A DNA stretch of 64,000 nucleotides from a virus. Under the pieces are notes generated by a model that did no database searches, was not told where the DNA came from, and was given only the letters and a program-made list of their open reading frames with translations. The first letter of the stretch is position 1; each line of letters starts with the position of its first letter. The stretch spans positions 1 to 64,000 of IMG/VR virus record IMGVR_UViG_3300045988_137804. One strand, written 5' to 3'. This document shows, piece by piece, positions 10,438 to 57,500 of this stretch. The translations under genes were made by a program, and so were the position numbers.

Positions 10438-10501
10438 CTTGACGCAGAAAACATTTGATTTTTGCATTCATGTTTTGCACGCCTCATTTCTTCAATGTGC
10501 A

Positions 10502-39518: not shown

Positions 39519-39863
39519 ATGCAGAAAAAGAATTACAAAGGTCGCTGCGAGAAATTAACAGTGCCAAAATCTAAGGATGTCTGCCATATCTATAATGACA
39601 TCCAAAAGTCTTATCTATTACAACTTCAGGACGATCCAAACATCAAAGAGATAAAATGTAATGTCCTTATGCTTGGATTGGAACTTGGAGAATTCACATC
39701 TGATTTTCAGTGTGTTACAGCAGACAACAATCTAATAGTGCGTGAATGTATCTCACGAGATGCTATCGCCAAACCAATGACAGCAAAACGATTAGATGCT
39801 TCAAGAGAGTATTGGTTTCGTCATGGCATAACAGATTGGGGGATTGTAACCGATGAAAAATAA
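39519..39863 (+). CDS. tnsA: TnsA-like small protein (putative PD-(D/E)xK endonuclease fold, possibly degenerate) at the first position of a Tn7-like operon
   Basis: RBS aaaggag 9 nt upstream; TSDF...IVREC resembles the TnsA TPDF...VEVK region but the lysine is not conserved; the stop overlaps the tnsB start. Confidence 0.4.
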   Translation: MQKKNYKGRCEKLTVPKSKDVCHIYNDIQKSYLLQLQDDPNIKEIKCNVLMLGLELGEFTSDFQCVTADNNLIVRECISRDAIAKPMTAKRLDASREYWFRHGITDWGIVTDEK

Positions 39864-41661
39864 GAGTCTATTTTATAATCCAAAAACCAAAGAAATATTT
39901 CGTGTGTTAGACAGTAAAGGTTCAAAAGTTCTTATCATTAATTGCACAAAGAAACAGATGCCTTATTGGACAGAATTCGATTCAATTTCTTCCTGTCGTT
40001 TAATCACAGAAGATGAATTACAGGACATGACTGGCACACATTTTCAAGAACTAACTGTACCATCAAAAGAATACAGATATGTTCAAGAAAGGTTTTCACT
40101 GATTTCAAATATCATTCCTATCATCGGAAATAAAAGCAAGCGTACTCAGATGATACGAATCATATCTGAAACAAATAATTGCAGTAAACAAACAATCAAA
40201 AACATCTTGTGCCAGTATCTCATCTATCAAAATATTTCTGCATTAGCACCGCAAAAGAGCAATGAAAAAGAACTAACAACAGATGAGAAAAACATGCGTT
40301 GGGCATTAAATAAGTTCTTCTATACAAAGAATAAGAATTCATTATCAACCGCTTACGTCATGATGCTTAAAGAAAAATATACAGATGAATACAACAACTT
40401 ATTACCACACCCAACCATTCATCAGTTCCGTTATTTCTATCGCAAAACAAAAAAGATGGAAACGTATTATATCTCAAGAGATGGCATAAAAGATTACCAA
40501 AGAAATCACAGACCATTGCTAGGAGAAGGAATTAGAACAGTTGCAAATAGCATTGGAACAGCTATGTTGGATTATACAATCTGTGATATTTATCTCGTAA
40601 ACGATAAACAAGAATTAATTGGTCGTCCATTAATGACAGCTTGCATTGATGTCTACAGCGGATTGTGTTGTGGTTACTCATTAACATGGGAAGGTGGAAT
40701 GTACAGTTTGCGTTCTTTGATGTTAAATGTGGTCACTAATAAGAAAGAACATTGTAGAAAGTTTGGAATAAATATCGAAGAATCCGACTGGAATTGTCAT
40801 CAATTACCTGCAACATTAATCACAGATAAAGGTTCAGAATATGCGTCAGAAAACTTTGAACAACTTACAGATTTAGGAGTGTCTATTATAAATCTACCAG
40901 CCTATAGACCAGAGTTAAAAGGATCAGTTGAAAAGTTTTTTGATATGATTCAATCACTTTATAAGCCACAGTTACTAGGAAAAGGTGTCATAGAATCTGA
41001 TTTCCAGGAACGTGGCTCACATGATTATAGAAGAGATGCTTGTCTAACATTAGAACAATTTGAAAAAATAATTCTTCGTTGCATCATCTATTATAATACA
41101 CAGAGAATTATCAAAAATTCACCACTGATTGAACAAAATATTCCGCCACATTCTTGTGACATATGGAACTATTATTTGACCTATAATGATGACTTTTTGA
41201 TAAGAATATCGCCACAGAATCTACTTTTATGTTTGCTACCAAGAACGAAAGGAGTGTTTAAAAGAAATGGTTTAAACGTCAATAGTCTCCGCTATAAGCA
41301 TAAAACATACACCGAAATGTATCTTGTAGGAGGAGATGTAACAGTAGCCTACAATCCAGAAGATGTTTCTTACATTTGGCTCATTGAAGAAAATGGAACG
41401 TATGTAAAATTTGAATTAATCAATTCTCAGTTCTATGGAAAGGATTTATCATTTGTAGAAAAATATATGGAGTCATCTAAGAAGCTAATTGCAGAAAATA
41501 CCGATGATAATTTACGAGCAAAAGTTACGCTTTCAAAAGATATAGATTTTGTAATTTCTGAAAGTGTACGTTCTAATGTAAGCACAAAAAATATCCGCAA
41601 GAATCGTCAGAAAGAACAGGAACTTACTCATAGAGATTTCGTAAAGGAGTATGAATTATGA
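39853..41661 (+). CDS. tnsB: Tn7-like transposase TnsB (Mu-type DDE transposase / rve integrase core)
   Basis: DDE core with LITDKGSEY and KGSVEKFFDMIQ; an N-terminal DNA-binding region; 602 aa. Confidence 0.85.
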   Translation: MKNKSLFYNPKTKEIFRVLDSKGSKVLIINCTKKQMPYWTEFDSISSCRLITEDELQDMTGTHFQELTVPSKEYRYVQERFSLISNIIPIIGNKSKRTQMIRIISETNNCSKQTIKNILCQYLIYQNISALAPQKSNEKELTTDEKNMRWALNKFFYTKNKNSLSTAYVMMLKEKYTDEYNNLLPHPTIHQFRYFYRKTKKMETYYISRDGIKDYQRNHRPLLGEGIRTVANSIGTAMLDYTICDIYLVNDKQELIGRPLMTACIDVYSGLCCGYSLTWEGGMYSLRSLMLNVVTNKKEHCRKFGINIEESDWNCHQLPATLITDKGSEYASENFEQLTDLGVSIINLPAYRPELKGSVEKFFDMIQSLYKPQLLGKGVIESDFQERGSHDYRRDACLTLEQFEKIILRCIIYYNTQRIIKNSPLIEQNIPPHSCDIWNYYLTYNDDFLIRISPQNLLLCLLPRTKGVFKRNGLNVNSLRYKHKTYTEMYLVGGDVTVAYNPEDVSYIWLIEENGTYVKFELINSQFYGKDLSFVEKYMESSKKLIAENTDDNLRAKVTLSKDIDFVISESVRSNVSTKNIRKNRQKEQELTHRDFVKEYEL

Positions 41662-42917
41662 TTAATATGAATAAAGTAATCAAAGAACTTCCTGATATGC
41701 TGTCCGGAAATGAACTTCAGAAAGCAATGTCTATTATTCCAAAATACGACAAACAGATTCAGGAAGATGGAAGTATGACCGAAAGACTTTTGAAATTATC
41801 TGACCTTTATAGCATTTATATTCCATCACAAATGTCTACTGAAATTTATAGCAAACTATATCTTGGAATCATTCGTTCTATGCAGAAAAAAGGAAACAAG
41901 TTAACTGTACAACAATTCAATTCAACTTATAGAACGATGCAGAATATTAAGAATAAAACTGGCAATCAGCAATATGATGGAATCATAGGTGGATCAGATT
42001 CATTTACAATTATTGGTGCAAGTGGGATAGGAAAATCATCAGCTATTTCTCGTGCATTGAATCTGATTGAAGCAAATCATGTAATAGAAATTGAACAGCC
42101 TTACACTAAAATACTTCCATGCTTAACAGTGCAATGTCCATTCGATTCTTCTGTAAAAGGATTATTACTTGAAATTCTTCGCAAAGTTGATGAGCAGTTA
42201 GGAACAGATTATGCACAAACAAAAAGGTTCACGACTGATATGCTTATAGGTGCTGTTAGTCAGGTGTGTTTAAATCATATTGGCTTGCTTGTTGTAGACG
42301 AAATACAGAACGTAGTTAATTCAAAGAACGGCAAGAACTTAATCGGATCATTGACGCAGCTAATCAACAATTCAGGCATTAGCATCTGCATGGTTGGAAC
42401 ACCAGATAGTGAAATATTCTTTGAACAGGCTATGCAATTAGCTCGTAGAAGTGTCGGATTAAAATACACAGCTTTGCCATACGATGAACATTTTTGCGAA
42501 GTATGTGAATGCTTATTTTCTTACCAATATGTAAAAAATATCACATATATAAATAGCACGACTATAGAATGGTTGTATCAACACAGTGCAGGAGTTATCT
42601 CTATTGTTGTATCATTAATTCATGATGCACAAGAGATTGCAATCTTAAATGGGAGAGAAGTATTAGATATTAAATCGTTAGACGAAGCATACAACAATAG
42701 ACTTTCTATGTTGCACGATTATATTAGACCTACTATGAGAAAGAAATCTATCGGCAATAATAAAATAAAGAAACAAAATATCATTACAACTTTGTCGATA
42801 AAAAATAGCGCAGATATTCAAACAGATTTAATACAAAGTCTTGCGAAAGAATGTAAGAAAGATGGAACAGATATTGTAGAAATACTGAGTCAACATATTA
42901 CAATTGAGGTGATTTAA
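41658..42917 (+). CDS. tnsC: Tn7-like AAA+ transposition regulator TnsC/TniB
   Basis: Walker A IIGASGIGKSSAIS and Walker B LLVVDEIQNV; coupled to tnsB and tnsD. Confidence 0.8.
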   Translation: MINMNKVIKELPDMLSGNELQKAMSIIPKYDKQIQEDGSMTERLLKLSDLYSIYIPSQMSTEIYSKLYLGIIRSMQKKGNKLTVQQFNSTYRTMQNIKNKTGNQQYDGIIGGSDSFTIIGASGIGKSSAISRALNLIEANHVIEIEQPYTKILPCLTVQCPFDSSVKGLLLEILRKVDEQLGTDYAQTKRFTTDMLIGAVSQVCLNHIGLLVVDEIQNVVNSKNGKNLIGSLTQLINNSGISICMVGTPDSEIFFEQAMQLARRSVGLKYTALPYDEHFCEVCECLFSYQYVKNITYINSTTIEWLYQHSAGVISIVVSLIHDAQEIAILNGREVLDIKSLDEAYNNRLSMLHDYIRPTMRKKSIGNNKIKKQNIITTLSIKNSADIQTDLIQSLAKECKKDGTDIVEILSQHITIEVI

Positions 42918-44318
42918 ATGATTGGATTTATGCCTAAATTATATCCAGATGAATTAGTGTATAGTTGGATTGCTAGGTATCATGTAAGAACTGGACATTA
43001 TAGTTATCAGCAAACAGCAAAACATCTACTAGATAAGAAAGCAAATATTGTCTCGAAAAAGTTTTTAAACGAATACTCAAATGAATTTTTTAACATCATC
43101 AAAAAGAATATTCCAATAAAAGAGTTAGTAATAAATCATAGTATGCTGTCAGCTTATATTAAATTTTTGCCAAAAGATAAGCGCAATAATCTAATAGAAT
43201 CCTATGAAAACAATTTAAGATATAAAGAGTCATCAATTGGATTTAAGACAAGAAGTAATGGTATTAGTATGCGATATTGTCCTATATGTGTAAAGGAAGA
43301 TCGAGAAAAATATGGAGAAACTTACTGGCACAGAGAACATCAATTTGTTGGAATTAATGTATGCACAAAGCATAAATGTTATCTTATAGATTCCAAAATG
43401 TCTGTAAAAAGTATTGATAAGTCTGAGTTTTATACCGCAGAATATGTCATAGAACAACATGATGATGTTAAGATTTCCAATAATGAGTATGAGATAAAGT
43501 TTGCCAAGTATTTTACAGAAGTCATAAATACAGAGTCAAATAATGACTCAAATATTGTGGAATATCTCAATACTATATTATTGAACTCAAAGTATAGAGC
43601 AAATGGATGTATGCTAAAAGATTTTAATAAATTGTACGATGATTATTCTGAATTATGCGAAAAGATTAATGTAAATATAATTTCTTCACAACCATCGTTA
43701 AGAGAGATATTAAAAAATAAACGCAGAACATTGGATATTTGTATCCTTGGAATGCTATTGAATATTTCGCCTTACGATCTCGTGAATAGAGTATTGCCAA
43801 ATACAAACAAAGAGGATATCAGAGAGCAAGTCATATTTTTAAGAGATGTAAAAAAGATGAGTTATAATCGTATTGCAAAAGAATTAAACGCAAGTAGAAG
43901 AGCAGTTGGTACAATATATCATAGTAAAAAAACTGAAAATGATTTAGATGTTCTTAAACTTCTTAAAGATGAACTGCCAAAATTCTATAATGGAGATTTA
44001 ACTAATGGAAGACCGCAAAAAATAACAGTATACACAGTTGAAAAACAATTTGATATTCCACAAAAAGTATTAATAAATAATAAATCCTATTATAACGAAA
44101 TAATCAAGTATGAAGAGTCTTATCCTGAATATTGGGCGAGAGAATTAGTATGGTCTTATAATAAACTAAAGGAAGATAAAGCATATATAAGTCAAAATAA
44201 AATAACCAAACAAATAAATATTCGTAAGGAGCAACCTGTAAAAGCTATACCATACATCTCTAAATATACAGACAAAGAAACTGCTGAAGCTATTAAATCA
44301 TTATTGCAAAAATCGTAA
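42918..44318 (+). CDS. tnsD: TniQ/TnsD-family target-selection protein
   Basis: TniQ N-terminus MPKLYPDELVYSWIARYHV; zinc finger CPICVKEDREKYGETYWHREHQFVGINVCTKHKC; C-terminal HTH MSYNRIAKELNASRRAVGTIY. Confidence 0.8.
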   Translation: MIGFMPKLYPDELVYSWIARYHVRTGHYSYQQTAKHLLDKKANIVSKKFLNEYSNEFFNIIKKNIPIKELVINHSMLSAYIKFLPKDKRNNLIESYENNLRYKESSIGFKTRSNGISMRYCPICVKEDREKYGETYWHREHQFVGINVCTKHKCYLIDSKMSVKSIDKSEFYTAEYVIEQHDDVKISNNEYEIKFAKYFTEVINTESNNDSNIVEYLNTILLNSKYRANGCMLKDFNKLYDDYSELCEKINVNIISSQPSLREILKNKRRTLDICILGMLLNISPYDLVNRVLPNTNKEDIREQVIFLRDVKKMSYNRIAKELNASRRAVGTIYHSKKTENDLDVLKLLKDELPKFYNGDLTNGRPQKITVYTVEKQFDIPQKVLINNKSYYNEIIKYEESYPEYWARELVWSYNKLKEDKAYISQNKITKQINIRKEQPVKAIPYISKYTDKETAEAIKSLLQKS

Positions 44319-45624: not shown

Positions 45625-46887
45625 TTAGATTCCTCTGGTTACTAGTAATGTTCCACTTGTAAGATCTGGTAATCCTGTAAGTTTTCCATTAGATACCCCT
45701 AGTGTAATAGAAGTGGCAGATGGTGTTCCATATGTTACAGATTTATAATAACTTGTTCCGTTGAATGCATACATAGTAGTGGTTGAAGTTCCCCATGAAC
45801 TTGAACTGGAAGCTGTAGCATAACCATACGCTTTGATTGTCCCAGATGTAGTTTTAAATGATACTGTTGGGTTTGTAACATCAATCAAATAAGCTTCGCA
45901 ATTGTTATTGGACGATGTTGAAGATGAAGAATCTCCAGTATATGTACCAGTTACTCCAAGAATTGATACTCCAGATTTGATATTAGAAGCAATAATTTTA
46001 TTTTGTTCTGTAGAAGAAATTGATACTTTTCCAGAGCCATTATGGTATCCGGATGGAATAGTATATGTTCCAGCTTTAGTAGAAATTGTTCCAGTAACCG
46101 CACCATTATTTGTCATTGTACCTGTAGTTTTACCACTACTAATATAAGCGGTTTTACCAGAGAGAATGTTTGTTGCTGTAGCTGTTGCATCTGAAGTGTT
46201 TGTGCCTGTGGAAGTACCAGAAGAGGAGACATCGAGTGTTCCAGTCAATTTAACGCCGTTAATTGATGTAAATGTAACACCTTTTTTTACTTCTCTAACA
46301 GAAGCATTACCAAATTTGCTTGCATCCACAAGCAAAGTCAAATCTTGATCACCTACATATGCGCCGATTTTATCATCATTATTAGGATTCCAAGTCCCAG
46401 TTATTTTTGCAAATTTTAAATTATAACCTCCAATCGAGCTTACATGTGTTTCTACTGAAGACACGGTATGTGCAACATCTGGATTTCTAGGTAATGTTCC
46501 ACTAATATTTACGCCATTCGCACTTGTAAAAGTATAGCCTGATACAACAGCGTCTTGTGGCGCGTCACCAAATTTATTAGCTCTTGTTGTTGTTGTTAAA
46601 ATATCGCCCTGTTGAACAATTGCTTTGTTTGTATCTGCATTAGATCCCAAATTATTTACATTTTGTGAAATACTAATACTTGCTGATGTACCGCTTTTAT
46701 TATATATAGGATCTGTACCAACTGAGCCATATTGAAACAAATCTGTTCTATGTTCAAGCGTACCAGTAATAGCAGTACCACTTTTATTATGAGCCTTTAC
46801 GCCACTTGCCATACCACTCGCAGTAACCGTATCCCCTGTCAAATCAATCAGAGTTTTTCCATTATAAACAACTTTATTTGTCGCCAT
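45625..46887 (-). CDS. Ser/Thr/Gly-rich tail-fibre-like structural protein
   Basis: Low-complexity beta-rich sequence with repeated GT(L/I)... blocks; position in the tail module. Confidence 0.4.
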   Translation of the reverse strand: MATNKVVYNGKTLIDLTGDTVTASGMASGVKAHNKSGTAITGTLEHRTDLFQYGSVGTDPIYNKSGTSASISISQNVNNLGSNADTNKAIVQQGDILTTTTRANKFGDAPQDAVVSGYTFTSANGVNISGTLPRNPDVAHTVSSVETHVSSIGGYNLKFAKITGTWNPNNDDKIGAYVGDQDLTLLVDASKFGNASVREVKKGVTFTSINGVKLTGTLDVSSSGTSTGTNTSDATATATNILSGKTAYISSGKTTGTMTNNGAVTGTISTKAGTYTIPSGYHNGSGKVSISSTEQNKIIASNIKSGVSILGVTGTYTGDSSSSTSSNNNCEAYLIDVTNPTVSFKTTSGTIKAYGYATASSSSSWGTSTTTMYAFNGTSYYKSVTYGTPSATSITLGVSNGKLTGLPDLTSGTLLVTRGI

Positions 46888-46899
46888 ATAATCCCTCCT

Positions 46900-48618
46900 T
46901 TATCCTATTGTTACAGTAGTACCAGAGCTATTTGACTCTTCCTTATACGGAATCGCACTTACTGATACGTTATCTTTCATGACCTTACCGCTTGTACTAA
47001 GTGACTGTGTGGTAGCTGACGGAGTTACACTATATGAGCCTGAATAAGTCTCTGGAAGTTTAGCGATAATTGCTTTAAGAATTGAAGTCACATCTGAGCC
47101 ATAAGATGAGAGAGAAGATAAGTCTCCCAGTTTTGTATTGATTTCTGATTCTGTGTAATAACGATCATCGTGCGTATGACTTGAAGCTGCTTTTCCATTA
47201 AGAGCGGTAGTAATTGTACTCTGTGTCATAGTACCATCTGTTGCAGTACCCGTACCTGTATAAAGTTTTGTAAGACCTGCTGTTGATGTTGTTCCTGTAC
47301 TGTAAGTAGTATTTGTAGGAACTACCCATGTACCATCTCCACGTAAAAATGATGCTTGTTTTCCAGCCGCAGGAGCCGGAACTAAACCTGCTTTTCCAGC
47401 AGCACTTGCTGTAGCGGCAGTCATATTGCTATAAGTTGTATTATTATCCGGTGGAACAGTCCAAGTTCCATCCTCTCTAAGATATTTTGTAGTACCTGCT
47501 GTTGTAGATGGAGCAGGTACAAGACCAGCCTTTGCTCCAGAACCAGACTTAACAAAATTTGAATATGTTGTGTTGTTATCTGCTCCCCAAACAGCAGTAC
47601 CATCCGCTGACCATCTAAGAATTTGCCCAGAAGACCCTCCGGATGGAATATGTTTATTTCCAGATGTTGTTGGGTGAGTATATACTGTATCTGTGAATTT
47701 TGCCCCGGATGGAACATCTGCATTAACTGTATGATTATTTACTTTTGATGCATTTGTTGCAGTTGAAGCATTTCCACTTAAAGCACCTTTAAAGGTTGTT
47801 GCTCTGATTGTTCCAGAAGACGGCTGAACAGACAATCCAGCACTTGAGAAAACTTGATCCGTAACAGTTGTTGGCGAGAATCCTTCTGTAGCACTATTTG
47901 AAGCACCCCAAACCAATGATCTCCAGTTTGTATAATCTGAATCTTTTACAGCTGCCTGTGTTACCTTTGTGTCCGTATTCGTATCACTTCCAGGAATACC
48001 TAATCCTGTAATATCTGCCTTTGTAACAGCAGTAGCAGCACTAACATGTCCTGTTGCATCAACTGTAACTTTGTAAAGTCCAGAAGATTTTGCTGTGTAA
48101 CTTGGATGGGTATAAACTGTATTATTATCAGTTAATTCGATAGTTGTGTTCCCAGATTGGTTCATAGTAAAAGTCCCTTTACTAGTGCCATTTTGTTTGA
48201 CAGTCACTGTACCATTACCAACTGACGGTATTGTAGCAGAACTATAAGCAAGAGAACCAAGTCCAAGCCATGATTTCAATGCGTCTTTACTGACATCCTT
48301 GATTTTTGCAATATTTGAACCACCGTCTCCGCCTGTATATCCTGCAATGAATTTAATGTTATCTCCTGTAATTCCACTTCCGCTATAACCAATCTTAATA
48401 TTTTTTGATGTATTTCCATAATCGACTACAGTAGTAGCCGAATCCGCACTTGTTGCTTTAGTCGCAGTATCTGCATTTCCCTGTAATTTTCCAATAAATG
48501 TTGGAGCTGTAACTGAGTCGCTTACATATAATTTTGACAAAAGCCTCGAAACTCCCGTTACGATTAGATTGCTTAACTGAGCCAAGTTAACTCCTCCTTT
48601 CGTATATTTAAAAATCAA
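46900..48618 (-). CDS. Tail fibre protein (shares modules with the 54527-57607 gene)
   Basis: The shared block TVYTHPSYTAKSSGLYKVTVDATGHVS...ADITGLGIP and IELTDNNT. Confidence 0.5.
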   Translation of the reverse strand: MIFKYTKGGVNLAQLSNLIVTGVSRLLSKLYVSDSVTAPTFIGKLQGNADTATKATSADSATTVVDYGNTSKNIKIGYSGSGITGDNIKFIAGYTGGDGGSNIAKIKDVSKDALKSWLGLGSLAYSSATIPSVGNGTVTVKQNGTSKGTFTMNQSGNTTIELTDNNTVYTHPSYTAKSSGLYKVTVDATGHVSAATAVTKADITGLGIPGSDTNTDTKVTQAAVKDSDYTNWRSLVWGASNSATEGFSPTTVTDQVFSSAGLSVQPSSGTIRATTFKGALSGNASTATNASKVNNHTVNADVPSGAKFTDTVYTHPTTSGNKHIPSGGSSGQILRWSADGTAVWGADNNTTYSNFVKSGSGAKAGLVPAPSTTAGTTKYLREDGTWTVPPDNNTTYSNMTAATASAAGKAGLVPAPAAGKQASFLRGDGTWVVPTNTTYSTGTTSTAGLTKLYTGTGTATDGTMTQSTITTALNGKAASSHTHDDRYYTESEINTKLGDLSSLSSYGSDVTSILKAIIAKLPETYSGSYSVTPSATTQSLSTSGKVMKDNVSVSAIPYKEESNSSGTTVTIG

Positions 48619-49295
48619 TATTCGATAAAGTCATCGAACTCTATTTTGTTTTCGTATATCTTGTTTGAATTTGGGATAGAATAAATCCCGTGAATTTGAT
48701 CATTATAAGACGGTCTATAAATTTCTGTTCCTTCATGGATTCTAAGACCTGTAAATAAAATGTATCCTTGTGTAAACGTATTTTCCAAATTTGGGTTTGG
48801 GTAAAACATAATATAAATCTTTCCATCATCTGCATTTGATCTAAATTTTGCCCAAACCAATATCACTTTTCCTTTTGTAGTGTCTACAATACTCCACGAG
48901 TTACCGTTTGTATTATATTTTTCTGTATACGAACAACCATGTTCTAAATGTAATCGAAAATCCGCATCACAATCCTCAGAAACATAAGCGTACATGCTTA
49001 CTGTGAAATCTCCATTTTTTATTCTTTCTTTTTGCCAATCGAGAATATAAGAGTAAACCATGAATCGTTTTGTATTATTCCAATATTTTCGTTTCTCCTC
49101 TGATACGGGATTAATTTTTTTACAAGTATCAAATCCATAAGGAAGAAAAATATCCGTCTTATAGTTAGATTCACAGGTACAATTACTATTTGCTATATTT
49201 TGTTTTCCTAAATATAAATTTTGCGGGGGGGGGGTAACAGAATAGTTTACATCAATTATCCCATTTTCATTAAGTTGCGTCATTCTATCCTCCAA
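48615..49295 (-). CDS. hypothetical structural protein carrying a C10 (plus-strand G10) homopolymer in codons 21-24
   Basis: G10 at 49225-49234 encodes TPPPQ. Confidence 0.3.
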   Translation of the reverse strand: MEDRMTQLNENGIIDVNYSVTPPPQNLYLGKQNIANSNCTCESNYKTDIFLPYGFDTCKKINPVSEEKRKYWNNTKRFMVYSYILDWQKERIKNGDFTVSMYAYVSEDCDADFRLHLEHGCSYTEKYNTNGNSWSIVDTTKGKVILVWAKFRSNADDGKIYIMFYPNPNLENTFTQGYILFTGLRIHEGTEIYRPSYNDQIHGIYSIPNSNKIYENKIEFDDFIEY

Positions 49296-49313
49296 AAATC
49301 CATTTAAATAAGG

Positions 49314-49709
49314 CTAAAATTCAATGAAATCTGCCGATGAAATTCCACTTTCATTAAAAGTACATTTTGATGTTATTTCTGTGTCTATGCGGTAATATAA
49401 GTCGTAATAACCATCTATAACCACTTCTCCAAGTGTAGATGGAATACCACCATTAAATTTATTCCAACAACCGATAGCTCCCCACCAGTTACTGCTATAT
49501 GTATTGTTCATACAGAGATAAGTATTACCTTTCTTTAGATAAACTCCACCGTAACTACTTGAAGTCCAATATTCATCACCTGTATAGACCTCAACATCAT
49601 CGTGACCCACATCTGCGAAAGCAGCAGTCATCGGATTTACATTTTGAATAAACCTATATTTAAAATCTGGATTACTTTCTGTTATTTTTGAATTGTCATA
49701 AGTTCCCAT
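49314..49709 (-). CDS. hypothetical structural protein
   Basis: ORF only. Confidence 0.3.
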   Translation of the reverse strand: MGTYDNSKITESNPDFKYRFIQNVNPMTAAFADVGHDDVEVYTGDEYWTSSSYGGVYLKKGNTYLCMNNTYSSNWWGAIGCWNKFNGGIPSTLGEVVIDGYYDLYYRIDTEITSKCTFNESGISSADFIEF

Positions 49710-49960
49710 TTGCCTGACGTGTTGTAATTACATAATGAAACATTAAACCATGCATTTTCGTTCTTGTATACATGTGTTGCAAATGAGTCAGATTCTGAGA
49801 ATAAGTTAAAAGAACCGTCAGATAAGACGGGAGTATGATGAAAGACTCTTACCCATACTGATCCATCTGATTCAGTATAAAAGTTTGAGTCATACATATT
49901 AATAATAGGAGAGGTAGCAAATGCAGTTGCAAGGATGTTTCCATTTTTACAAATATTCAT
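49682..49960 (-). CDS. hypothetical protein
   Basis: ORF only. Confidence 0.25.
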   Translation of the reverse strand: MNICKNGNILATAFATSPIINMYDSNFYTESDGSVWVRVFHHTPVLSDGSFNLFSESDSFATHVYKNENAWFNVSLCNYNTSGKWELMTIQK

Positions 49961-49962
49961 AA

Positions 49963-50523
49963 TTACACCTCCTCAATCTGTATTGCTACGATTTTATCTG
50001 AAGCAATTGAACCAGATTTAGTAGAGTTGTCAATAGCATATTCTGCTGGCATAACCTTGATATTTGAGAATGTAATTCTTCCTATACCATTCGAATAGTC
50101 ACTACGAACTCCTAAGTATTGTCGTGTCCATTTGTCGTCTTTATTATTAAAGAATCCAGATACAAATTTTGATCCAGATTTTGCACTAAGAACCAAATCT
50201 TTGTTTAATACTTTATTTACAACAGTACACATCGAGTTTCCACTAGACCAATAATATGTATTATCATTTTTGTTAAACGTTGATCCTTGCGCCCATATAT
50301 CAAAATTATCTGCAACATTTTCTTGAAATCCGTCCCAAGAAATAAGAAGCTCAATGTAATACCTTTTAGTTCCTTCAAATCCAGCAATTGATTCTCCAGT
50401 TAATGTTGAGTTATTAGTATCTTTCCTTGGAACATATGTAACACTTTTGACATTATTCATCAACACTCCACCATGCTCATACATTTCAGTTCCAGTTACA
50501 TTACCATTCTTATATATACTCAT
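49963..50523 (-). CDS. hypothetical structural protein
   Basis: ORF only. Confidence 0.3.
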   Translation of the reverse strand: MSIYKNGNVTGTEMYEHGGVLMNNVKSVTYVPRKDTNNSTLTGESIAGFEGTKRYYIELLISWDGFQENVADNFDIWAQGSTFNKNDNTYYWSSGNSMCTVVNKVLNKDLVLSAKSGSKFVSGFFNNKDDKWTRQYLGVRSDYSNGIGRITFSNIKVMPAEYAIDNSTKSGSIASDKIVAIQIEEV

Positions 50524-50524
50524 A

Positions 50525-50770
50525 TTAAACCACCGCCTTCCGGTAATTTAGATTTCCATAACTTCTCTTGTTGGTCTGTTTTGTCATATAATAATATATT
50601 TTTCCTGGCGTTATATGGCAATACTGATTTGTTATTGTATATATATCATTACTTATTCCGGAAAGAACATATGGATTTTCTTTTGTATATTTCTCAGAAT
50701 TTACTAATATATTCATCGCATCTGATTCATATATATTTTCTTTTTTAATATTTCCATTTTTATTTATCAC
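50525..50770 (-). CDS. hypothetical protein
   Basis: ORF only. Confidence 0.25.
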   Translation of the reverse strand: MINKNGNIKKENIYESDAMNILVNSEKYTKENPYVLSGISNDIYTITNQYCHITPGKIYYYMTKQTNKRSYGNLNYRKAVV

Positions 50771-52575
50771 TGCTCAATAAATTCTCCTTGTGTCATTAGA
50801 GTACCTGTATTAGTAATAGATACAGGTGTCTTATATAAGTTCATAACATCTTCAGCAGAGAGTGCTGTGGCGTAGATACGAAAGTCAGAAAGATAACCGT
50901 TAGTCCAATTACCTTTTGGGATTCCATTATCAGAATTTTCCGATCCTCCAATTGTCCCTTTTGTGCCAACTCCTTGTAATGTCCCAACTTCATCTTTTGT
51001 CGAAACTAAATTTCCATCTACGTATAATTTTTTGGCTGTGTTACTTCTTGTTACACAAATATGATGCCAACAATTTGTGGTCACAAGATAATCAAATTCT
51101 GTATGTACTTCATCATCAAGTCTTATTACACCTCCAAGAAAGAATACGGCTACTCCAACACCAACGGCTGTTCTTGCAGTATATATAGTGTGCACAGTAT
51201 TTTTTGTAAAATAAGCCCAACAAGCAATAGAAAAATCTGTAGCTGTAGAATTGATTGGATTTTGGACTCCGATATAATTTGAACTACCATTAAATTTATA
51301 ACAACAATTATATCTAGGTGAATCATTATAGATGGTAGGAGCAGAAGAGGAAGTAATCCATCCGTGATGACCAAAGCCAGAAGTATCATAGATTGTGTTA
51401 TCATACATTTCTGGAGTATCTTTTAGAGATGTCATATAAGGAGTGGGAGATGAACCAAGTTCCACTTTTGCATTCTTTACATAAAGATCAGCATTATATC
51501 CGCCTCCGACACAAAAGTAATCAGAATCTTTGCCAGTATACAAATCTCTTAATGTCACGGTTACAGAATATCTTGTCCATTCATCACTTTTAACATCATC
51601 CATTAAATCTCCAAACTCGCGTCTGTTCCAGAAATCAATAGAAGAAGTTGTTGTACTCCAATACTGAATATAAGGACTTCCGCTATCTATAGTTCCTTTT
51701 ACATCAACTGAAAAGGTTACAACATCTCCTGTTTTTAATCCGGAATTCTTACGTTCAAAATTTATACAAATCCCATTTGAATTAAAAATGCCAGTATTTC
51801 CAGTTTTAAAATGCCAACCTTCCGATGTTACTTCGTTGATGATGATATTATTTATTACACCATCACCCCAGTTTCTCCCATTCCAATCAATTAACCCTGA
51901 AGAATCTAATAAGTTTCTTCCAATGATATTTCCATCAATCATACTCATCGGATAATGGCACATTAACCCTTGAGATAAAAGACGAACTTCTTTAGGAGAT
52001 ATGGCATTATTGTAAATACGATAATCATTAAACATATGATATTCTGAATTGTAAATCATCTGTGTGTCATAAGCAAATGTAGAAGAGTTACTAACTTTTC
52101 CGCCTTCAGACCATTTTAGTTGTCCATTAATATAGATATTAATAGTAGGATTTTTATATACAACTGCAACATGTGTCCATTGATAGGATGGAAGTACACC
52201 TTTTATAAAATTTCCACAAAATATTGTATTTTCAGCATCATTCATCCAACTCCAATGAAAGTCATTACATGTAGGATATTGAAATAATGAAAACTTTCTA
52301 CTATTGTTTGCTGTCATATTATCGTTTCCAAATATCCTTGTGCGATTTGTAGTACTTCCTTCTTCCGCATTTACATATATCCAGAAAGCAATAGTAAGTT
52401 CATCATTATTTAGAACCTTTTCTGTACCTTCAGCCGGAATCAAAACTCCGCCTTTATTTAAACACTTTCCAAGTTTTCCGTCTTTGTAAGTTGCTCCTGT
52501 AACTTGTAAATCTACGTCCAGTAATCCCTGATTATTAGTATGTCCGTTCAGTGGCAGGTGTATCATCAAACTCAT
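50767..52575 (-). CDS. Tail / receptor-binding protein with Laminin-G (concanavalin-A-like lectin) domains
   Basis: LamG_3-like signatures LTIAFWIYV and FSIACWAYF; the C-terminus LSAEDVMNLYKTPVSITNTGTLMTQGEF is shared with the next gene. Confidence 0.45.
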   Translation of the reverse strand: MSLMIHLPLNGHTNNQGLLDVDLQVTGATYKDGKLGKCLNKGGVLIPAEGTEKVLNNDELTIAFWIYVNAEEGSTTNRTRIFGNDNMTANNSRKFSLFQYPTCNDFHWSWMNDAENTIFCGNFIKGVLPSYQWTHVAVVYKNPTINIYINGQLKWSEGGKVSNSSTFAYDTQMIYNSEYHMFNDYRIYNNAISPKEVRLLSQGLMCHYPMSMIDGNIIGRNLLDSSGLIDWNGRNWGDGVINNIIINEVTSEGWHFKTGNTGIFNSNGICINFERKNSGLKTGDVVTFSVDVKGTIDSGSPYIQYWSTTTSSIDFWNRREFGDLMDDVKSDEWTRYSVTVTLRDLYTGKDSDYFCVGGGYNADLYVKNAKVELGSSPTPYMTSLKDTPEMYDNTIYDTSGFGHHGWITSSSAPTIYNDSPRYNCCYKFNGSSNYIGVQNPINSTATDFSIACWAYFTKNTVHTIYTARTAVGVGVAVFFLGGVIRLDDEVHTEFDYLVTTNCWHHICVTRSNTAKKLYVDGNLVSTKDEVGTLQGVGTKGTIGGSENSDNGIPKGNWTNGYLSDFRIYATALSAEDVMNLYKTPVSITNTGTLMTQGEFIEQ

Positions 52576-52659
52576 ACAACTACCTCCAGAATATTCAGAC
52601 AGTTTCTATCTATTTTTTTTTTTTTTTTTGAATAATTTCTTCGCATCTCGTTCATTTTC

Positions 52660-54513
52660 CTACATCTCCTTAAATTCACCCTGAGTCATTAATGTTCCAG
52701 TATTCGTAAGTGACACTGGCGTATTGTATAATTCTTTTATATCTTGATCCGATAGAGCAGTAGCATACATTCTGAAATCTGATATAGAATAATCAGAAGT
52801 GGAAGAGCTGTCCTCACTATAACAATTACCAATACGATGTAATGCATGTGCTGATGCATACTCGGTATCTATATTGCTGTGTGTAACAGTTTTTCTCAAC
52901 ACGCCATTTAAATAATATTTGGCTGTATGTGTTTCTAAATCCCATGTGATTGTGAACATATTCCATACATTTAAATTAACATCAAACGTACATGTATTAC
53001 TGCAACAATCCATTGTAATAGCTTGTGCCCCTGTAGAACCAATTATAATAAAATCATATTTGTTTCCTGTCCAGTTATAACCATTTGCAAAAAATAGATA
53101 AGTTCTCCATGTATTGCTAGTTGAATGTCTATTAATCCAGAGATTTGCTGTTCCCTGAGACATATTTTCAAATGAAAAATTCGGTGTAATTATTCCTGTT
53201 TGCGCACCATTTAATAGTTTGCATGAACCATCATATCTTGGAGCATCGTTGTTATATGAAATATAATCTTTATTATACATTGTTCCATGATTCCCATAAC
53301 CACTTGTATCATAAACAATTCCATCATTCCAAGCACCATTACTTATAGGAGTATCAACATCACATTCTGATACTTGCACATCTTTAAGGTCAAAATCAAA
53401 TGAAAAAGTTGCGTCTTTAGTAGCCATAGCACTTGTATAAAATTCTAAGATTGGGTTAGTTTTATAAGTTGTTCCAGATCTATCTGATGTTTCTTCAAGT
53501 TGGATAATTAAATGATGTTCTCGCCATTTACCATCAGCCAAACTTGACGAGCAGACTGTTGAATTTTTAGGTCTAGCCCAGTCATTATCCATTCTACTTG
53601 CTCTTAATTCAAAAGATACATTAGAAGTACATGTATTGCATCTAGTCTTACAACTATAATCATATTTCTTTCCTGCCGTGAAATTAAATACTGGAAAGCT
53701 AATTGACTTCCAACTATTTGTTCCAGTACCTGTATATGTATATTTATAATTATATCCACGTTCATCTGTTAGCTTTGTACATGTTATATCATTTACACCA
53801 CCATTGGCTCTTCCTTCAAAGAAATCTCCGGAATATTTATTAATAGAAGCAGTAGGATACGGATCGTTTAAAGGATAGTGACAGATCATACCTTTTGCTA
53901 ATTCTTTAATTTCGCGTGGTGATAGGGCGTTGTCGTAGATGCGGATGTCTGACATATAAGATTGATACATCATATCGCCTTTAATTCTAGAGCCAATTGT
54001 AATTGATTTGTTTGAACCCCAAATATCAGACAAGTTATTAACCTTTGTTTTTTCTACTATTAAAGAACCATTAACATAAAATTTTCTACTTGTTCCATCA
54101 ATTATAAATGCAATATGATGCCATTTGTCATTTGACAAATTAAAAAGACATGTATTTCCACCAATTAAACCTTTTGAGTCTGAAAACCAATAGTAACCAG
54201 TCGTCGTATTTACTTCTAACCGATTATCATATTCGCCTATTGCAAATATATCTGACCATGCTCTAGGTGTCTTTGGTTTTACCCATAATGCAATAGTCAA
54301 TTCTTCTGAGTCATATTCCCACGGGACTCTTAAACAATAATCTCCCATAGATATACTCTTACCAAATTTATCATCTATATACGAAGGACTTGATGATGCT
54401 GTAATATTCATCGTACCAAGTCCATGATTTTCTAAGTTGTTCTGTGTGTTTAACCACACTTGTAAAGCCAATAAAGACCACTCCCTTTCTTTGAAAAAAG
54501 GAGCAGAATTCAT
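52660..54513 (-). CDS. Paralogous Laminin-G lectin-domain tail protein; the start is probably the internal Met at 54513 (RBS AAGGAG), not 54609
   Basis: LTIALWVKPKT; the C-terminus LSDQDIKELYNTPVSLTNTGTLMTQGEF; the longer ORF would overlap the upstream gene by 83 nt. Confidence 0.45.
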   Translation of the reverse strand: MNSAPFFKEREWSLLALQVWLNTQNNLENHGLGTMNITASSSPSYIDDKFGKSISMGDYCLRVPWEYDSEELTIALWVKPKTPRAWSDIFAIGEYDNRLEVNTTTGYYWFSDSKGLIGGNTCLFNLSNDKWHHIAFIIDGTSRKFYVNGSLIVEKTKVNNLSDIWGSNKSITIGSRIKGDMMYQSYMSDIRIYDNALSPREIKELAKGMICHYPLNDPYPTASINKYSGDFFEGRANGGVNDITCTKLTDERGYNYKYTYTGTGTNSWKSISFPVFNFTAGKKYDYSCKTRCNTCTSNVSFELRASRMDNDWARPKNSTVCSSSLADGKWREHHLIIQLEETSDRSGTTYKTNPILEFYTSAMATKDATFSFDFDLKDVQVSECDVDTPISNGAWNDGIVYDTSGYGNHGTMYNKDYISYNNDAPRYDGSCKLLNGAQTGIITPNFSFENMSQGTANLWINRHSTSNTWRTYLFFANGYNWTGNKYDFIIIGSTGAQAITMDCCSNTCTFDVNLNVWNMFTITWDLETHTAKYYLNGVLRKTVTHSNIDTEYASAHALHRIGNCYSEDSSSTSDYSISDFRMYATALSDQDIKELYNTPVSLTNTGTLMTQGEFKEM

Positions 54514-54526
54514 CCGCTCCTTAATA

Positions 54527-57500
54527 TTAATTAAATGTAAAGTCAATACACTTATTTGTGCTGTTGTATGTAATAGTCGCTCCGCCACCAAGCTGGAATG
54601 ATGTGGCACTTGTTTCTAGTTTACCTGATGCAGAAGAACCAATATTACATAAATTTGTTCCATCTGATTTAACAAAAGTTGCTTTAGGTGATCCATTAAG
54701 ACCTTTAATTCCAAGTGAACCAGTTTTATCATGGTCGCCAATGGCAACATCGTCACCAAGCGTATTCCATGTATTATTTGCAAGGTTTAATGCGCCCGTC
54801 ATGGTTCCTCCAGAGAGTTTTAAATATGTTGAATCATGATTGTGTGTAGCCGGAGTAAATGTACTTGGTTTTCCAGATACATTAGCCCATGTAACTGAGT
54901 TAGCTACTTTTGCTACATCCGCAGTTCCAGCTGTGTTTGCTTTACCAGAATAAATACCGTTGGTATCAATGTATGTATGTGTTGCACCTGCAATACCATT
55001 ATTGCAATTAGTGTAAAAGTCAATATTGCCATCATTTGTAAGGAATAATTTTTCATCTCCGCCATTACTAAGCAATGATTTAGCTGCATCTGCGGATTCT
55101 CCACCACCAACGATAGTTGCTCCACCTCCGCCAATTACAACACCATTACCATATACATCTGAGGTATTGTCGATAAATTTAATCATCTCATAAGTAGATT
55201 TTGAACCTTTGTAGCTAATATTCCCTGTCATCACACCACCAGTTAGCTTCAAATAACTACTATCATGATTATGACTACTTGGTGGGTAAGTAGCAGGTTT
55301 ACCAGTAATTCCACTCCAAGGTGCAGAAGTAGCACTACCAGCGGTATAAACTGTATATCCATCTTCAGAAGATAACTTCGTATCATCTATAACGAAATAC
55401 ATCTTTCCTGTGCCTGTAACTTTTACAGTATCACCTTTCTGGATACTTGCTGTAGTTAATTTAAAACGATCCGTATCGTCAGCTACAATAACACAGCGTT
55501 CTAATGCACCTTGAGGAAGACGAGCAATATCAATTGTTCCTGTAGTGATTTTACTTGCATCTACAGATGTAATAGTAGAATTATCATGATTATGAGTTGA
55601 TGGAGTATAAGTAGATGGTTTATTTTTTACATTATTCCATTCTACAGATTGTGCAGAAGCTGCGGTTGTCGCAGATGTTGCGCTTTTAACTGAAGCATTT
55701 GCAATATCTGTAATCTGAGAAATTGTATGATTGTGAGAAGTGTTTGCCTTACCACTAAGTTTTGAATCTACTTCAGATTCAGTGTAATATCTATCATCAT
55801 GGGTGTGAGAAGATGGTGTGAATGTGGAAGGTTTGCCTGTGACATTTCCCCAAGCTACAGCACCAGCAGAATTTGCGTAGTTTACAGAACCTCCGTCGGA
55901 CGAAGTAACTGTTGCTGTTGGAGTGGCGGATTCTGGTGTGTCATTACTTTTTATTTCCATGTTCCAATTGTTAGAAGTGTTAGTTGACTCTAAAACACGG
56001 ACTTTCATTCTGCCATATTGATTTTGATGGTTATAAATATAAAGAGTCCACGTATTTCCATTTGTGTTGATGATTGCATCACCAGGCAAGAAAGCTGTGC
56101 CTGTTCTTGATTCCCATTTTAATTCTCTTACATATATAGTGGTAGAATTATCACATCTTATATGCAAATCTAAAATAGCAGAACCGATATTACCATATCC
56201 ATATGTAAAGAGTAATCTCGCAACATGATTTGAGTATCCGGTTAATGTCGTACTATAAACTTTATACCAACCTGCTGTATTAGCCTTATCTGAACCAATA
56301 TAAGCTACGCTACCTATTTTGTCTAGTGAGACATGTGTATGCCCCGTATCTGATTTCCCATCCAAAACACTCTTAATAGCAGCTTGTGTCATTGTTCCGT
56401 CAGTAGCTGTTCCGGTTCCAGTATATAACTTAGTCAATCCGGAAGTAGAAGCAGTACCCGTAGAATATGTTGTATTTGTACTTGGGATTCCAAGAGCTGT
56501 GATATCAGATTTTGCTACCGCAGTTGTTCCAGAAACATGACCTGTAGAATCTACAGTTACTTTGTATAATCCATTTGTTTTAGCAGTATAAGAAGGATGC
56601 GTGTAGACGGTATCGGTGAGTTTTTCTTCTGTCCAGTTTCCCCATGTGCCATCTTGACAAAATCTTCTATACGATTTGTTTATTGTTGTAGAGCCAGTTG
56701 TAAATAGAATTTGGGTATAATATGTTCCATTTGCTGTATGCGATACAATTAATCCAAAATTGTCAACTCCAGATGGTTTATTTGAAACGGTATTTCCACC
56801 ACCAGCGTTATAAAAACCAGGAGTAGTAACACTATTTAAATTTTGATTTGTAAGTGTCATCATTGCGGCTTTATTTTCATTTAACCACTTACCCTGTGCT
56901 GCACTCAAACTTTTATCTGTCGCTGTAGAAGTAAGATTATCTATAACATCACGCCATGTATTTGTATTATTATCTGTAAGTTCAATAGTGGTTGCACCAG
57001 ACTGATTAGTTGTAAATGATCCTTTTACAGCTCCAGCCTGCTTTATTGTAATTGTTCCATTACCTACACTTGGAATAGTAGGCTTATTAGAAAGATCATT
57101 ATAAGAACCACTGATAGCAACCTTATGTAATTTACTTTTAATGTATTCAAATAATGCTTTCAATGGTCTACGATGATAAGTAGTTGTTGTAGTTCCTCCA
57201 CCTGCGTATTGAGACACGTAATAGTCATCATCATTCGGTGTGGCAGTTCCGGTTGTTAACGTATTAATCATCGTAGATAAATCATGTGTATGATTTGTAT
57301 TTGATTTTCCAGCCAAAGCAGAATTTACAACTTTATTTTGCACTGGATTTGTAGAAGTAGAACTCAACGCAGAGTCTACAGTTGTTTTATTGGCTCCAGA
57401 TGCGATGCCATCAAGTTTGGAACGGTCGTCTGGAGATAAGGATTCGTAAAGTGGAAGTTCTGACCATTTCTTAGAACCATCTCCAATTTTAAAATTGCCA

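What the first reader, a model, noticed from the sequence alone, without database searches (positions are those of the whole stretch)
49225..49234. G10/C10 homopolymer inside a structural gene of a roughly 33%-GC genome
A 10-nt G run (C10 on the coding strand, codons 21-24, TPPPQ) lies in ORF 48615-49295 within the tail-fibre region. A tract of this length is extremely unlikely by chance at this base composition. It is a classic slipped-strand mispairing site that would switch the ORF on and off, giving phase-variable expression of a host-range accessory protein, and it is also an obvious sequencing-error hotspot.
Basis: seen in the sequence. Interest (0 to 1): 0.5.

Follow-up and report, generated by a model that had tools for sequence, protein, structure and literature searches.

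The report
Switchable poly-C tract in phage tail gene
A run of ten C's near the start of a small sugar-binding tail gene of an uncultured human-gut phage is found in nature at different lengths, full-length or frameshifted, so the phage population very likely makes virions with and without this protein, as already known for Campylobacter phages.

Summary
The G10 run (C10 on the coding minus strand) at 49225-49234 is real. It is the only G or C run longer than 5 in the 64-kb window, and 20.9 kb of adjoining tail module has none of 6 or more. About 0.001 such runs are expected by chance, and the codon choice is about 3e-7 likely given T-P-P-P. It occupies codons 17-20 of a 222-aa gene (48615-49283, minus). 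The gene encodes a stand-alone CBM4/22-like beta-sandwich and sits directly upstream of a tail-fibre gene. Metagenome contigs of the same strain carry C10 (full length) or C9 (stop after 24 codons), with no other difference in up to 6.4 kb. Five strain backgrounds have exact ON/OFF allele pairs. In-frame lengths seen are C6, C7, C9 and C10; out-of-frame lengths are C8 and C9. A clade with only 55% protein identity keeps the same C9/C10 toggle, while more distant homologues lack the tract. This is a contingency locus switching a lectin-like tail accessory protein, as in Fletchervirus polyG tracts. It is a new member of a known kind. Not shown here: tract mixtures within one sample, reversibility, presence in the virion, any effect on host range.

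The parts
49225..49234 (-). C10 homopolymer (G10 on the + strand), codons 17-20 (ACC CCC CCC CCG = T-P-P-P): the hypermutable tract
   Evidence: C9 in same-strain contigs L017-L020 and L026.
48615..49283 (-). 222-aa gene for a stand-alone CBM4/22-like beta-sandwich protein (tail accessory protein); the stop codon is included
49289..49293 (-). Shine-Dalgarno GGAGG, 5 nt upstream of the ATG at 49283
   Evidence: conserved in L002, L003, L007 and L032.
49208..49210 (-). TAG reached when the tract is one base shorter (C9): product MTQLNENGIIDVNYSVTPPRKIYI*, 24 aa
   Evidence: Simulation of C6-C13; C9 alleles read directly.
49059..49061 (-). Internal ATG (Met75) from which gene callers annotate the OFF allele as a 148-aa product (P0053)
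46900..48585 (-). Tail-fibre gene immediately downstream (561 aa from TTG 48585, with its own GGAGGA at 48592-48597)
   Evidence: PHROG hits to tail-fibre repeat regions.
49314..49960 (-). Neighbouring accessory gene 'B'. It is split into 92 + 131 aa in this strain at ATTC-A5-TAACA (A-run 49685-49689). It is one 216-aa gene in relatives with A7.
   Evidence: A5, A7, A10, A11, A14 and A15 in different strains.
52613..52629 (-). A17 tract (T17 on the + strand), 37 nt upstream of the ATG of the 602-aa Laminin_G_3 gene. It is length-polymorphic within the strain (A17 / A18).
50767..54609 (-). Two Laminin_G_3 (ConA-like lectin) tail proteins that share the C-terminal (E/D)F(I/K)E motif with the small accessory ORFs

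Best explanation
The C10 tract is a contingency locus. During phage DNA replication the homopolymer misaligns (slipped-strand mispairing) and gains or loses a base. C10, C7 or C13 keep the 222-aa frame, varying only the number of prolines in a linker. C9 or C11 end translation after 24-32 codons. The gene encodes a small beta-sandwich carbohydrate-binding-module-like protein. It sits among lectin-like tail genes, directly upstream of a tail fibre. The tract lies in the disordered linker between a short N-terminal motif shared with neighbouring accessory ORFs (xxxKNGxI) and the folded core. The phage population should therefore be a mixture of genomes that make virions with or without this module, a bet-hedge against variable host surface glycans. 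Shown here: the tract, its statistical oddity, its length polymorphism in otherwise identical DNA, the frame consequences, the fold and the gene context. Inferred: slippage as the mechanism, reversibility, mixtures within one population, incorporation of the protein into the virion, and any effect on adsorption or host range.
For: (1) The tract is unique and improbable.
(2) Same strain, different lengths. L001/L025 are C10. L017, L018, L019, L020 and L026 are C9. Against the window, L017-L020 have 0 mismatches and the tract is the only real gap over 6447, 3730, 2478 and 1404 bp. L026 differs at 5 mismatches and 4 gap positions over 5.4 kb.
(3) Exact ON/OFF protein pairs, in which the truncated product is an exact suffix of the full-length one: P0053/P0001, P0056/P0057, P0067/P0063, and P0065 with P0061 and P0054. 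P0007/P0079 matches at 181 of 182 residues.
(4) DNA read for OFF alleles shows the tract as the only lesion: L007, L033 and L034 carry C8+AG; L032 carries C9+G; L016 carries C9.
(5) I predicted the ON form of L016 (C10, APPPPTINLY) from its DNA and then found it as P0079.
(6) The tract is kept across about 7% nucleotide divergence (L002, L003, L007) and in a clade at 55% protein identity. Homologues at 48% identity or less have a 3-residue gap exactly there.
(7) Similar tracts recur in neighbouring tail genes of relatives. L021 and L024 differ over 8609 bp only by G9 versus G7 in a fibre gene, intact versus split. L008, L036 and L037 carry C9 in a neighbouring gene; in L008 it is a homologue of the window's 186-aa ORF.
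(8) The fold and context point to a carbohydrate-binding tail accessory protein.
(9) There is precedent in Fletchervirus polyG tracts and in T2/T4 contingency loci.
Against: No reads were available, so heterogeneity within one sample and the switching rate are unknown. Several window-strain contigs probably come from one study, and some may be re-assemblies of the same read sets: ERZ1748955 and SAMN03283271 both give a 15,310-bp contig. The count of independent samples is therefore lower than the contig count; at least three biosamples carry C9. Two C9 contigs have low coverage (4.4x and 1.6x). OFF alleles are at least as frequent as ON alleles, and some lineages have interrupted or decayed tracts with a broken N-terminus (L008-L015, L035). 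This fits a dispensable gene drifting towards loss. This phage has only one long G/C tract in about 84 kb, unlike the multi-tract Fletchervirus genomes. The protein has no Pfam or PHROG match, and its presence in the virion is untested.
Confidence: 0.72

Rival explanations
1. Neutral mutational hotspot in a dispensable gene. The tract is simply fragile DNA, frameshifts are tolerated because the protein is not needed, and the locus is on its way to pseudogenisation. No switching function has been selected.
For: OFF alleles are roughly as common as ON alleles or more so (about 33 versus about 21 contigs, from the contig counts). About 20 more contigs carry interrupted tracts locked out of frame (L010-L015, L035). 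L008 and L009 have a decayed tract plus a second frameshift in the N-terminus. The neighbouring gene B is also broken in most strains.
Against: An uninterrupted C9-C10 built from codons that are otherwise almost unused (CCC 0.7% of Pro) persists across many strains and in a clade at 55% identity. The body of the gene stays intact and 100% identical in OFF alleles. In-frame lengths C6, C7, C9 and C10 all occur, so the frame has been regained repeatedly. Tracts recur in other tail genes of relatives.
Confidence: 0.17
2. Sequencing or assembly artefact. The real genome has one fixed tract length, and C9 versus C10 reflects homopolymer miscalls.
For: Long G/C homopolymers are error-prone. Two C9 contigs have 1.6x and 4.4x coverage, while the C10 contig has 22.7x. 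Assemblies also disagree at the A17/A18 tract and break there.
Against: C9 recurs in at least 3 biosamples and with different assemblers. Other strains have C6, C7, C8 and C9, including interrupted tracts that cannot be miscalls. The same ON/OFF pattern appears in five backgrounds from unrelated studies. Distant loci show G9 versus G7, a 2-nt difference.
Confidence: 0.04
3. Leaky recoding. 'ON minus one' alleles such as C9 are partly rescued by -1 ribosomal frameshifting on C_CCC_CCC, helped by polyproline stalling, or by RNA-polymerase slippage. The tract would then set the protein dose rather than a strict ON/OFF state. This could act in addition to DNA slippage.
For: Every OFF allele read at DNA level is exactly one base shorter than an ON length: C9G in two strains, C8AG, and C9 in the distant clade. 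The C9 allele contains a perfect X_XXY_YYZ heptamer in frame. The N-terminal leader ORF and its SD are conserved even in lineages that are locked out of frame.
Against: No stable RNA structure follows the tract (z = +0.66). The bias towards 'minus one' is also what a deletion bias of long tracts would give (own knowledge of C. jejuni polyG dynamics; not checked in the library). With four lineages, p is only about 0.06. ON alleles need no recoding.
Confidence: 0.07

Closest known systems
Hypermutable polyG tracts in receptor-binding-protein genes of Campylobacter Fletchervirus phages (Sorensen et al., Cell Rep 2021, 35:109214; seen only as cited and summarised in PMC12823448 and bioRxiv 10.1101/2025.10.21.683753)
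   Same: A G/C homopolymer of 7-11 nt lies inside a phage tail or host-recognition gene. Length changes switch the reading frame and give subpopulations that differ in tail composition. Both are low-GC phages of the gut environment.
   Different: The protein family is unrelated: tblastn against 50,697 phage records finds nothing. The phage is an uncultured, roughly 160-205-kb phage, probably of Gram-positive gut bacteria. It has a single G/C tract in about 84 kb rather than several. The switched gene is a small accessory CBM-like protein rather than the main RBP. The evidence here is comparative metagenomics, not experiment.
Phage contingency loci in T2 agt / T4 rIIA (Gomez, Barrick and Waters, bioRxiv 10.1101/2025.10.21.683753)
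   Same: Short homopolymers in phage ORFs give reversible frameshifts by polymerase slippage, interpreted as bet-hedging.
   Different: Those tracts are about 6 nt or longer and sit in defence-evasion or lysis-timing genes. That study found such repeats under-represented in tail-fibre genes of coliphages. Here a 10-nt tract sits in the tail module and is conserved across a phage lineage.
Bacterial contingency loci (polyG/polyC phase-variable surface genes of Campylobacter, Haemophilus, Neisseria)
   Same: The tract lies near the 5' end of the ORF in a tolerant region, toggles between C9 and C10, and uses atypical codons to maintain the repeat.
   Different: It is carried by a virus and replicated by the phage's own DnaE-type polymerase. 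The phenotype is virion composition, not cell surface.
Accessory carbohydrate-binding baseplate and tail modules (e.g. Tuc2009 tripod BppA, phi812 CBM-cenC baseplate protein, Pa193 gp46)
   Different: There is no detectable sequence similarity and no Pfam hit. The protein is stand-alone, with short terminal motifs shared with its neighbours. Sugar binding has not been shown.
Other phage tropism switches: DGR (BPP-1 Mtd), invertible G/C segments (Mu Gin, P1 Cin)
   Same: They generate heterogeneity in host-recognition proteins within a phage population.
   Different: The mechanism is entirely different. None of the window ORFs that were scanned against PHROGs or Pfam matched a reverse transcriptase or an invertase. 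The switch here is a binary frameshift, not sequence diversification or cassette exchange.

Membership tests
Contingency locus (simple-sequence-repeat phase-variable gene) | Uninterrupted homopolymer, about 7 nt or longer, within the ORF (or promoter), far longer than composition predicts | tested here: met
   C10 at 49225-49234. About 0.001 expected per 64 kb; the next-longest G/C run is 5. Codon choice has P of about 3e-7.
Contingency locus (simple-sequence-repeat phase-variable gene) | Tract length is polymorphic among otherwise identical or near-identical genomes | tested here: met
   C10 versus C9 with 0 substitutions over up to 6447 bp. Exact ON/OFF pairs in five backgrounds.
Contingency locus (simple-sequence-repeat phase-variable gene) | Length changes alone toggle between a full-length and a truncated product; several in-frame lengths exist | tested here: met
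   Simulation. ON alleles C6AG, C7G, C9AG and C10G; OFF alleles C8AG and C9G, with an intact downstream frame.
Contingency locus (simple-sequence-repeat phase-variable gene) | High, reversible switching rate within a clonal population (mixed lengths in reads, reversion) | not testable with these tools
   No read data or cultures. Only consensus assemblies were available.
Contingency locus (simple-sequence-repeat phase-variable gene) | A phenotype that differs between ON and OFF | not testable with these tools
   Function is inferred from the fold and the context only.
Fletchervirus-type polyG tracts in phage RBP genes | G/C homopolymer of 7-11 nt inside a phage tail or receptor-binding gene | tested here: met
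   C6-C10 in a tail-cluster gene. An RBP role for the product is inferred, not shown.
Fletchervirus-type polyG tracts in phage RBP genes | Several such tracts per genome | tested here: not met
   One G/C run of 6 or more in the 64-kb window plus 20.9 kb of further tail module. Related phages do have 2-3 in 8.6 kb.
Fletchervirus-type polyG tracts in phage RBP genes | Homology of the tract-bearing protein or the phage to Campylobacter phages | tested here: not met
   tblastn of the protein and megablast of 7 kb against 50,697 phage records: no match. The best DNA-polymerase hit is 34% identical, in Brevibacillus phage Sundance.
CBM4/CBM22 (CenC-like) carbohydrate-binding modules | Beta-sandwich (jelly-roll) fold superimposable on solved CBM4/22 structures | tested here: met
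CBM4/CBM22 (CenC-like) carbohydrate-binding modules | Sequence-profile membership (Pfam CBM_4_9 or similar) | tested here: not met
   No Pfam or PHROG family at E <= 0.01.
CBM4/CBM22 (CenC-like) carbohydrate-binding modules | Demonstrated glycan binding or a conserved binding cleft | not testable with these tools
   No ligand data.
Programmed -1 ribosomal frameshift site | Slippery heptamer X_XXY_YYZ in the zero frame | tested here: met
   C_CCC_CCC is present in C9 alleles, read from the sequences. This is a by-product of any C9 run.
Programmed -1 ribosomal frameshift site | Downstream stimulatory RNA structure | tested here: not met
   MFE -13.5 kcal/mol, z = +0.66 against shuffles.
Programmed -1 ribosomal frameshift site | The two-frame arrangement is conserved in relatives | tested here: not met
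   Many alleles, including the window, are in a single frame.

The most novel reading that the evidence does not exclude
The tail module of this phage lineage may be a multi-locus switchboard. It holds several lectin- or CBM-like accessory proteins that share short terminal motifs (N-terminal KNGxI, C-terminal (D/E)F(I/V)E-x). These motifs may serve for docking; that role is conjecture. Each protein would be toggled independently by its own homopolymer: poly-C in this gene, poly-C in the 181/186-aa-type neighbour in relatives, poly-A in gene B, poly-G in fibre genes of relatives, and A17/18 upstream of a Laminin_G_3 gene. Most of these tracts lie between a terminal motif and the rest of the protein, or in a promoter region. 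The result would be combinatorial virion types, with 'ON minus one' alleles possibly leaky through -1 slippage so that dose as well as presence is tuned.
Probability: 0.2. Interest if true: 0.7.

Novelty: new member of a known kind. Interest (0 to 1): 0.5.

Why it matters
So far, experimental evidence for hypermutable homopolymers that switch phage host-recognition genes comes essentially from Campylobacter phages. A recent survey found such repeats depleted in coliphage tail-fibre genes. This locus shows the same device in an unrelated, uncultured, large human-gut phage lineage. ON and OFF alleles segregate in natural populations, and the tract is conserved across deep divergence. The practical consequence is that frameshifted or truncated tail genes next to homopolymers in viromes should not be dismissed as errors or pseudogenes. 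The locus is also a concrete place where read-level tract counts could measure phage bet-hedging in vivo.

Tried and rejected
- Megablast of 46000-53000 against 50,697 phage records gave no match. tblastn of the protein against the same set also gave no match.
- Pfam and PHROG scans of the 222-aa protein found no family.
- Exact-flank pattern scans with a variable gap found nothing in IMG/VR or in JGI metagenomes. The informative relatives came instead from exact-protein look-ups.
- A profile scan of 185,579 species genomes for a prophage copy or host found no relative. The host is therefore only inferred, from the Amidase_2 plus choline-binding-repeat endolysin whose best hits are phages of Gram-positive bacteria, most often Streptococcus and Bacillus phages; the repeat region is closest (42%) to gut Clostridium phages.
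- hhalign of the family against the window's 602-aa Laminin_G_3 protein, to test for an embedded paralogous domain, gave probability 0.4%; rejected.
- A search for an RNA structure downstream of the tract as a frameshift stimulator found none.
- A promoter and terminator scan showed nothing near the tract. The only strong terminator-like site on the minus strand is at 45597-45568.
- I considered that L019's second gap was another variable site. It is a scaffold N-run.
- I considered that gene B's poly-A is a clean ON/OFF switch like the C tract. This is not established. In the window strain the lesion is a net -4 (A5 plus loss of a CA), and L002 also has a nonsense codon.

Full report
**Observation**

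The + strand reads tttgc-G10-taaca, with the run at exactly 49225-49234. On the coding (minus) strand this is GTT ACC CCC CCC CCG CAA, i.e. V-T-P-P-P-Q. The window is 33.2% GC. No other G or C run exceeds 5 nt. A run of 10 or more is expected 0.0003-0.002 times per 64 kb under independent-base or first-order Markov models. A further 20.9 kb of the same phage's tail module (L028) has no G/C run of 6 or more.

The tract is not a by-product of coding. In 34 other ORFs (16,100 codons), CCC is 3 of 411 proline codons, ACC is 5% of threonine codons, and PPP never occurs. The chance of this codon string given T-P-P-P is about 3e-7.

The ORF listed from TTG 49295 most likely starts at ATG 49283, 5 nt downstream of GGAGG at 49289-49293. 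All public gene calls use this start, giving 222 aa. The tract is therefore codons 17-20.

**Context**

The window belongs to a large uncultured phage; contigs carrying the identical protein are 160,806 and 204,834 bp. NCBI names the protein 'MAG TPA ... Caudoviricetes sp.'.

- It encodes a DnaE-type polymerase, NAD-dependent ligase, a RecD-like helicase and NrdD.
- No cultured relative is closer than 34% in the polymerase.
- The endolysin is Amidase_2 plus choline-binding repeats. Its best matches are phages of Gram-positive bacteria, most often Streptococcus and Bacillus phages, and the repeat region is closest (42%) to gut Clostridium phages. A Gram-positive host is an inference.
- The gene lies in a minus-strand tail operon, and a terminator-like site follows at 45597-45568.
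- Upstream are two Laminin_G_3 proteins and several small ORFs. Immediately downstream is a 561-aa tail fibre with its own SD and a TTG start at 48585.

**The protein**

The family is small: 35 representatives at 50% identity among 1.84 billion proteins. It has no Pfam or PHROG match. In some relatives the domain is fused inside or behind Laminin_G_3 tail proteins of 565-1470 aa.

An AlphaFold2 model built from 23 sequences has pLDDT 81 and pTM 0.77. It shows a confident beta-sandwich for residues about 25-190. The N-terminus (residues 1-13, with confidence still low to about residue 20, so including the PPP) and the C-terminus are low confidence.

- BFVD hits are tail and host-specificity proteins.

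The small ORFs of the cluster share an N-terminal xxxKNG(N/I)(I/V) motif. Several of them, and both LamG proteins, share a C-terminal (D/E)F(I/K)E-x motif. The tract thus sits in a linker between a terminal motif and the core. That these motifs are docking elements is my conjecture.

**Comparative test**

*Same strain.* A look-up of the window's own truncated product (from Met75, 148 aa) found six contigs. The four loci shown (L017-L020) carry C9. Against the window they have 0 mismatches, and the tract is the only real gap over 6447, 3730, 2478 and 1404 bp; L019's other gap is scaffold Ns. A fifth C9 contig, L026, differs from the window at 5 mismatches and 4 gap positions over 5.4 kb. The C10 allele is on four contigs.

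*Frame consequences.* Simulation shows that C7, C10 and C13 give 221-223 aa. C6, C9 and C12 stop after 23-25 codons, and C8 and C11 after 31-32 codons.

*Close relatives (about 93% nucleotide identity).*

| Locus | Tract | State |
|---|---|---|
| L002 | C10 | ON |
| L003-L006 | C6+AG (TPQQ) | ON |
| L007 | C8+AG | OFF, tract is the only lesion |

The 'AG' form is the C10 tract with its last C changed to A.

*Cluster members.* They reveal exact ON/OFF pairs, in which the truncated product is an exact suffix of a full-length product:

| OFF product | ON product(s) | Match |
|---|---|---|
| P0053 | P0001 | 148/148 |
| P0056 | P0057 | 170/170 |
| P0067 | P0063 | 170/170 |
| P0065 | P0061 (TPQQ) and P0054 (TPPQQ) | 152/152 |
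| P0007 | P0079 | 181/182 |

DNA confirms C9+G for P0056 (L032) and C8+AG for P0065 (L033, L034).

*Distant clade.* In the clade at 55% identity, L016 carries C9 and is out of frame. From its DNA I predicted the C10 product ...NFAPPPPTINLYTKQ. That exact protein exists as P0079.

*More distant homologues.* Those at 48% identity or less have an intact N-terminus and a 3-residue gap exactly where PPP sits. The tract is therefore a lineage-specific insertion that has been maintained since.

**Related tracts**

- In IMG/VR relatives (42% identity, 27.7% GC) the homologue lacks the tract. L021 and L024 differ over 8609 bp only by G9 versus G7 in the adjacent fibre-like gene, which is 319 aa intact versus split 118 + 157.
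- L008, L036 and L037 carry a C9 in a neighbouring gene, about 20-25 codons before its C-terminal motif, with flanks resembling the window's. In L008 that gene is a 181-aa homologue of the window's 186-aa ORF.
- Neighbouring gene B (49314-49960) is one 216-aa gene with A7 in L003. It has A5, A10, A11, A14 or A15 elsewhere and is split in the window strain.
- The A17 tract upstream of the 602-aa LamG gene is A18 in another contig of the same strain, and assemblies break there.

**Interpretation**

The simplest reading is a contingency locus. Replication slippage toggles C9 and C10, switching a non-essential carbohydrate-binding tail accessory protein on and off.

Sequencing error is very unlikely as a general explanation. 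C9 recurs across at least 3 biosamples and different assemblers. Other lengths and interrupted variants occur in other strains. Elsewhere the difference is 2 nt.

Independence is limited, however. Many window-strain contigs seem to derive from one study, and some may be re-assemblies of the same reads. Two C9 contigs have low coverage.

A neutral 'fragile, dispensable gene' reading is not excluded. OFF alleles are at least as common as ON alleles. Some lineages carry interrupted, out-of-frame tracts (L010-L015, L035) or a decayed N-terminus (L008, L009). Against it:

- A pure C-run built from almost unused codons is retained across deep divergence.
- In-frame lengths have been regained repeatedly.
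- The gene body is intact in OFF alleles.
- Tracts recur in neighbouring tail genes of relatives.

All OFF alleles read at DNA level are one base shorter than an ON length. This could reflect a deletion bias of long tracts or leaky -1 slippage on C_CCC_CCC. There is no downstream RNA structure, so I rate recoding low.

**Comparison with what is known**

Fletchervirus phages carry 7-11-nt polyG tracts in RBP genes, and T2/T4 carry contingency loci. The Gomez et al. preprint reports that such repeats are under-represented in coliphage tail-fibre genes. The present locus works like these but is not homologous to them. It lies in an unrelated gut phage lineage. It is a new member of a known kind, with unusually good natural-population evidence.

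**Verdict**

Interest is moderate (0.5).

Noticed in passing
window 52613-52629: T17 (A17 on the coding strand), 37 nt upstream of the ATG of the 602-aa Laminin_G_3 tail gene. It is A18 in another contig of the same strain, and several assemblies end exactly there. It may be a second variable tract, in a promoter or leader.
   Followed up: partly
window 49314-49960 (minus); A-run 49685-49689: Two overlapping ORFs (92 + 131 aa) are one 216-aa gene in relatives. The break is at a poly-A tract that is A5 here and A7 (intact), A10, A11, A14 or A15 in other strains.
   Followed up: partly
window 39853-44318 (plus): A Tn7/Tn5053-like transposition module inside the phage genome: a Mu-transposase-like protein, a TniB AAA ATPase and TniQ, lying between the replication and nucleotide-metabolism genes and the lysis gene.
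   Followed up: no
window 32386-35730 (plus): The anaerobic ribonucleotide reductase NrdD (1114 aa) is interrupted by an intein with a LAGLIDADG homing endonuclease, at about residues 436-764.
   Followed up: no
window 9335-10438 (plus): A RAGATH-27 RNA (80 bits, above the gathering score) is followed by a cluster of four tRNA calls: a 90-nt tRNA-Met call that Rfam did not report at the gathering threshold, then Gln, Leu, and one with an abnormal anticodon loop.
   Followed up: no
window 48615-54609 (minus): Small tail-cluster ORFs share an N-terminal xxxKNG(N/I)(I/V) motif. Several of them, and both Laminin_G_3 proteins, end in (D/E)F(I/K)E-x. This suggests a common docking element for interchangeable lectin-like modules.
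   Followed up: partly
L010-L015 (e.g. L010:2940-3010), L035:2610-2700: In about 20 contigs of a sister clade the tract is interrupted (ACACCCCCTCCT or ACCCCTCCC). The 18-codon leader, still intact with a good SD, is out of frame with the intact gene body. In L010 the leader's TAA lies 2 nt before the TTG that gene callers take as the start. Whether this is a pseudogene, reinitiation or recoding is unresolved.
   Followed up: partly
L021:5011-5019 vs L024:5011-5017; also L021:1463-1470 and L021:7000-7006: In more distant relatives from IMG/VR, a fibre-like gene next to the homologue carries G9 (intact, 319 aa) or G7 (split). This is the only difference in 8609 bp. Further G7-G8 runs lie in neighbouring tail genes.
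   Followed up: partly
L029:1658-3163 / L030:1658-3163: In one sample's version of this phage, a 501-aa large serine recombinase lies next to the tail module, where the ERZ1748977 contig (L028) has a 2394-aa DUF6273 protein. This points to mosaicism or a temperate variant.
   Followed up: no
L026:1-205: Homology with the window ends about 25 nt upstream of the A17 tract. This is a mosaic boundary next to the homopolymer.
   Followed up: no
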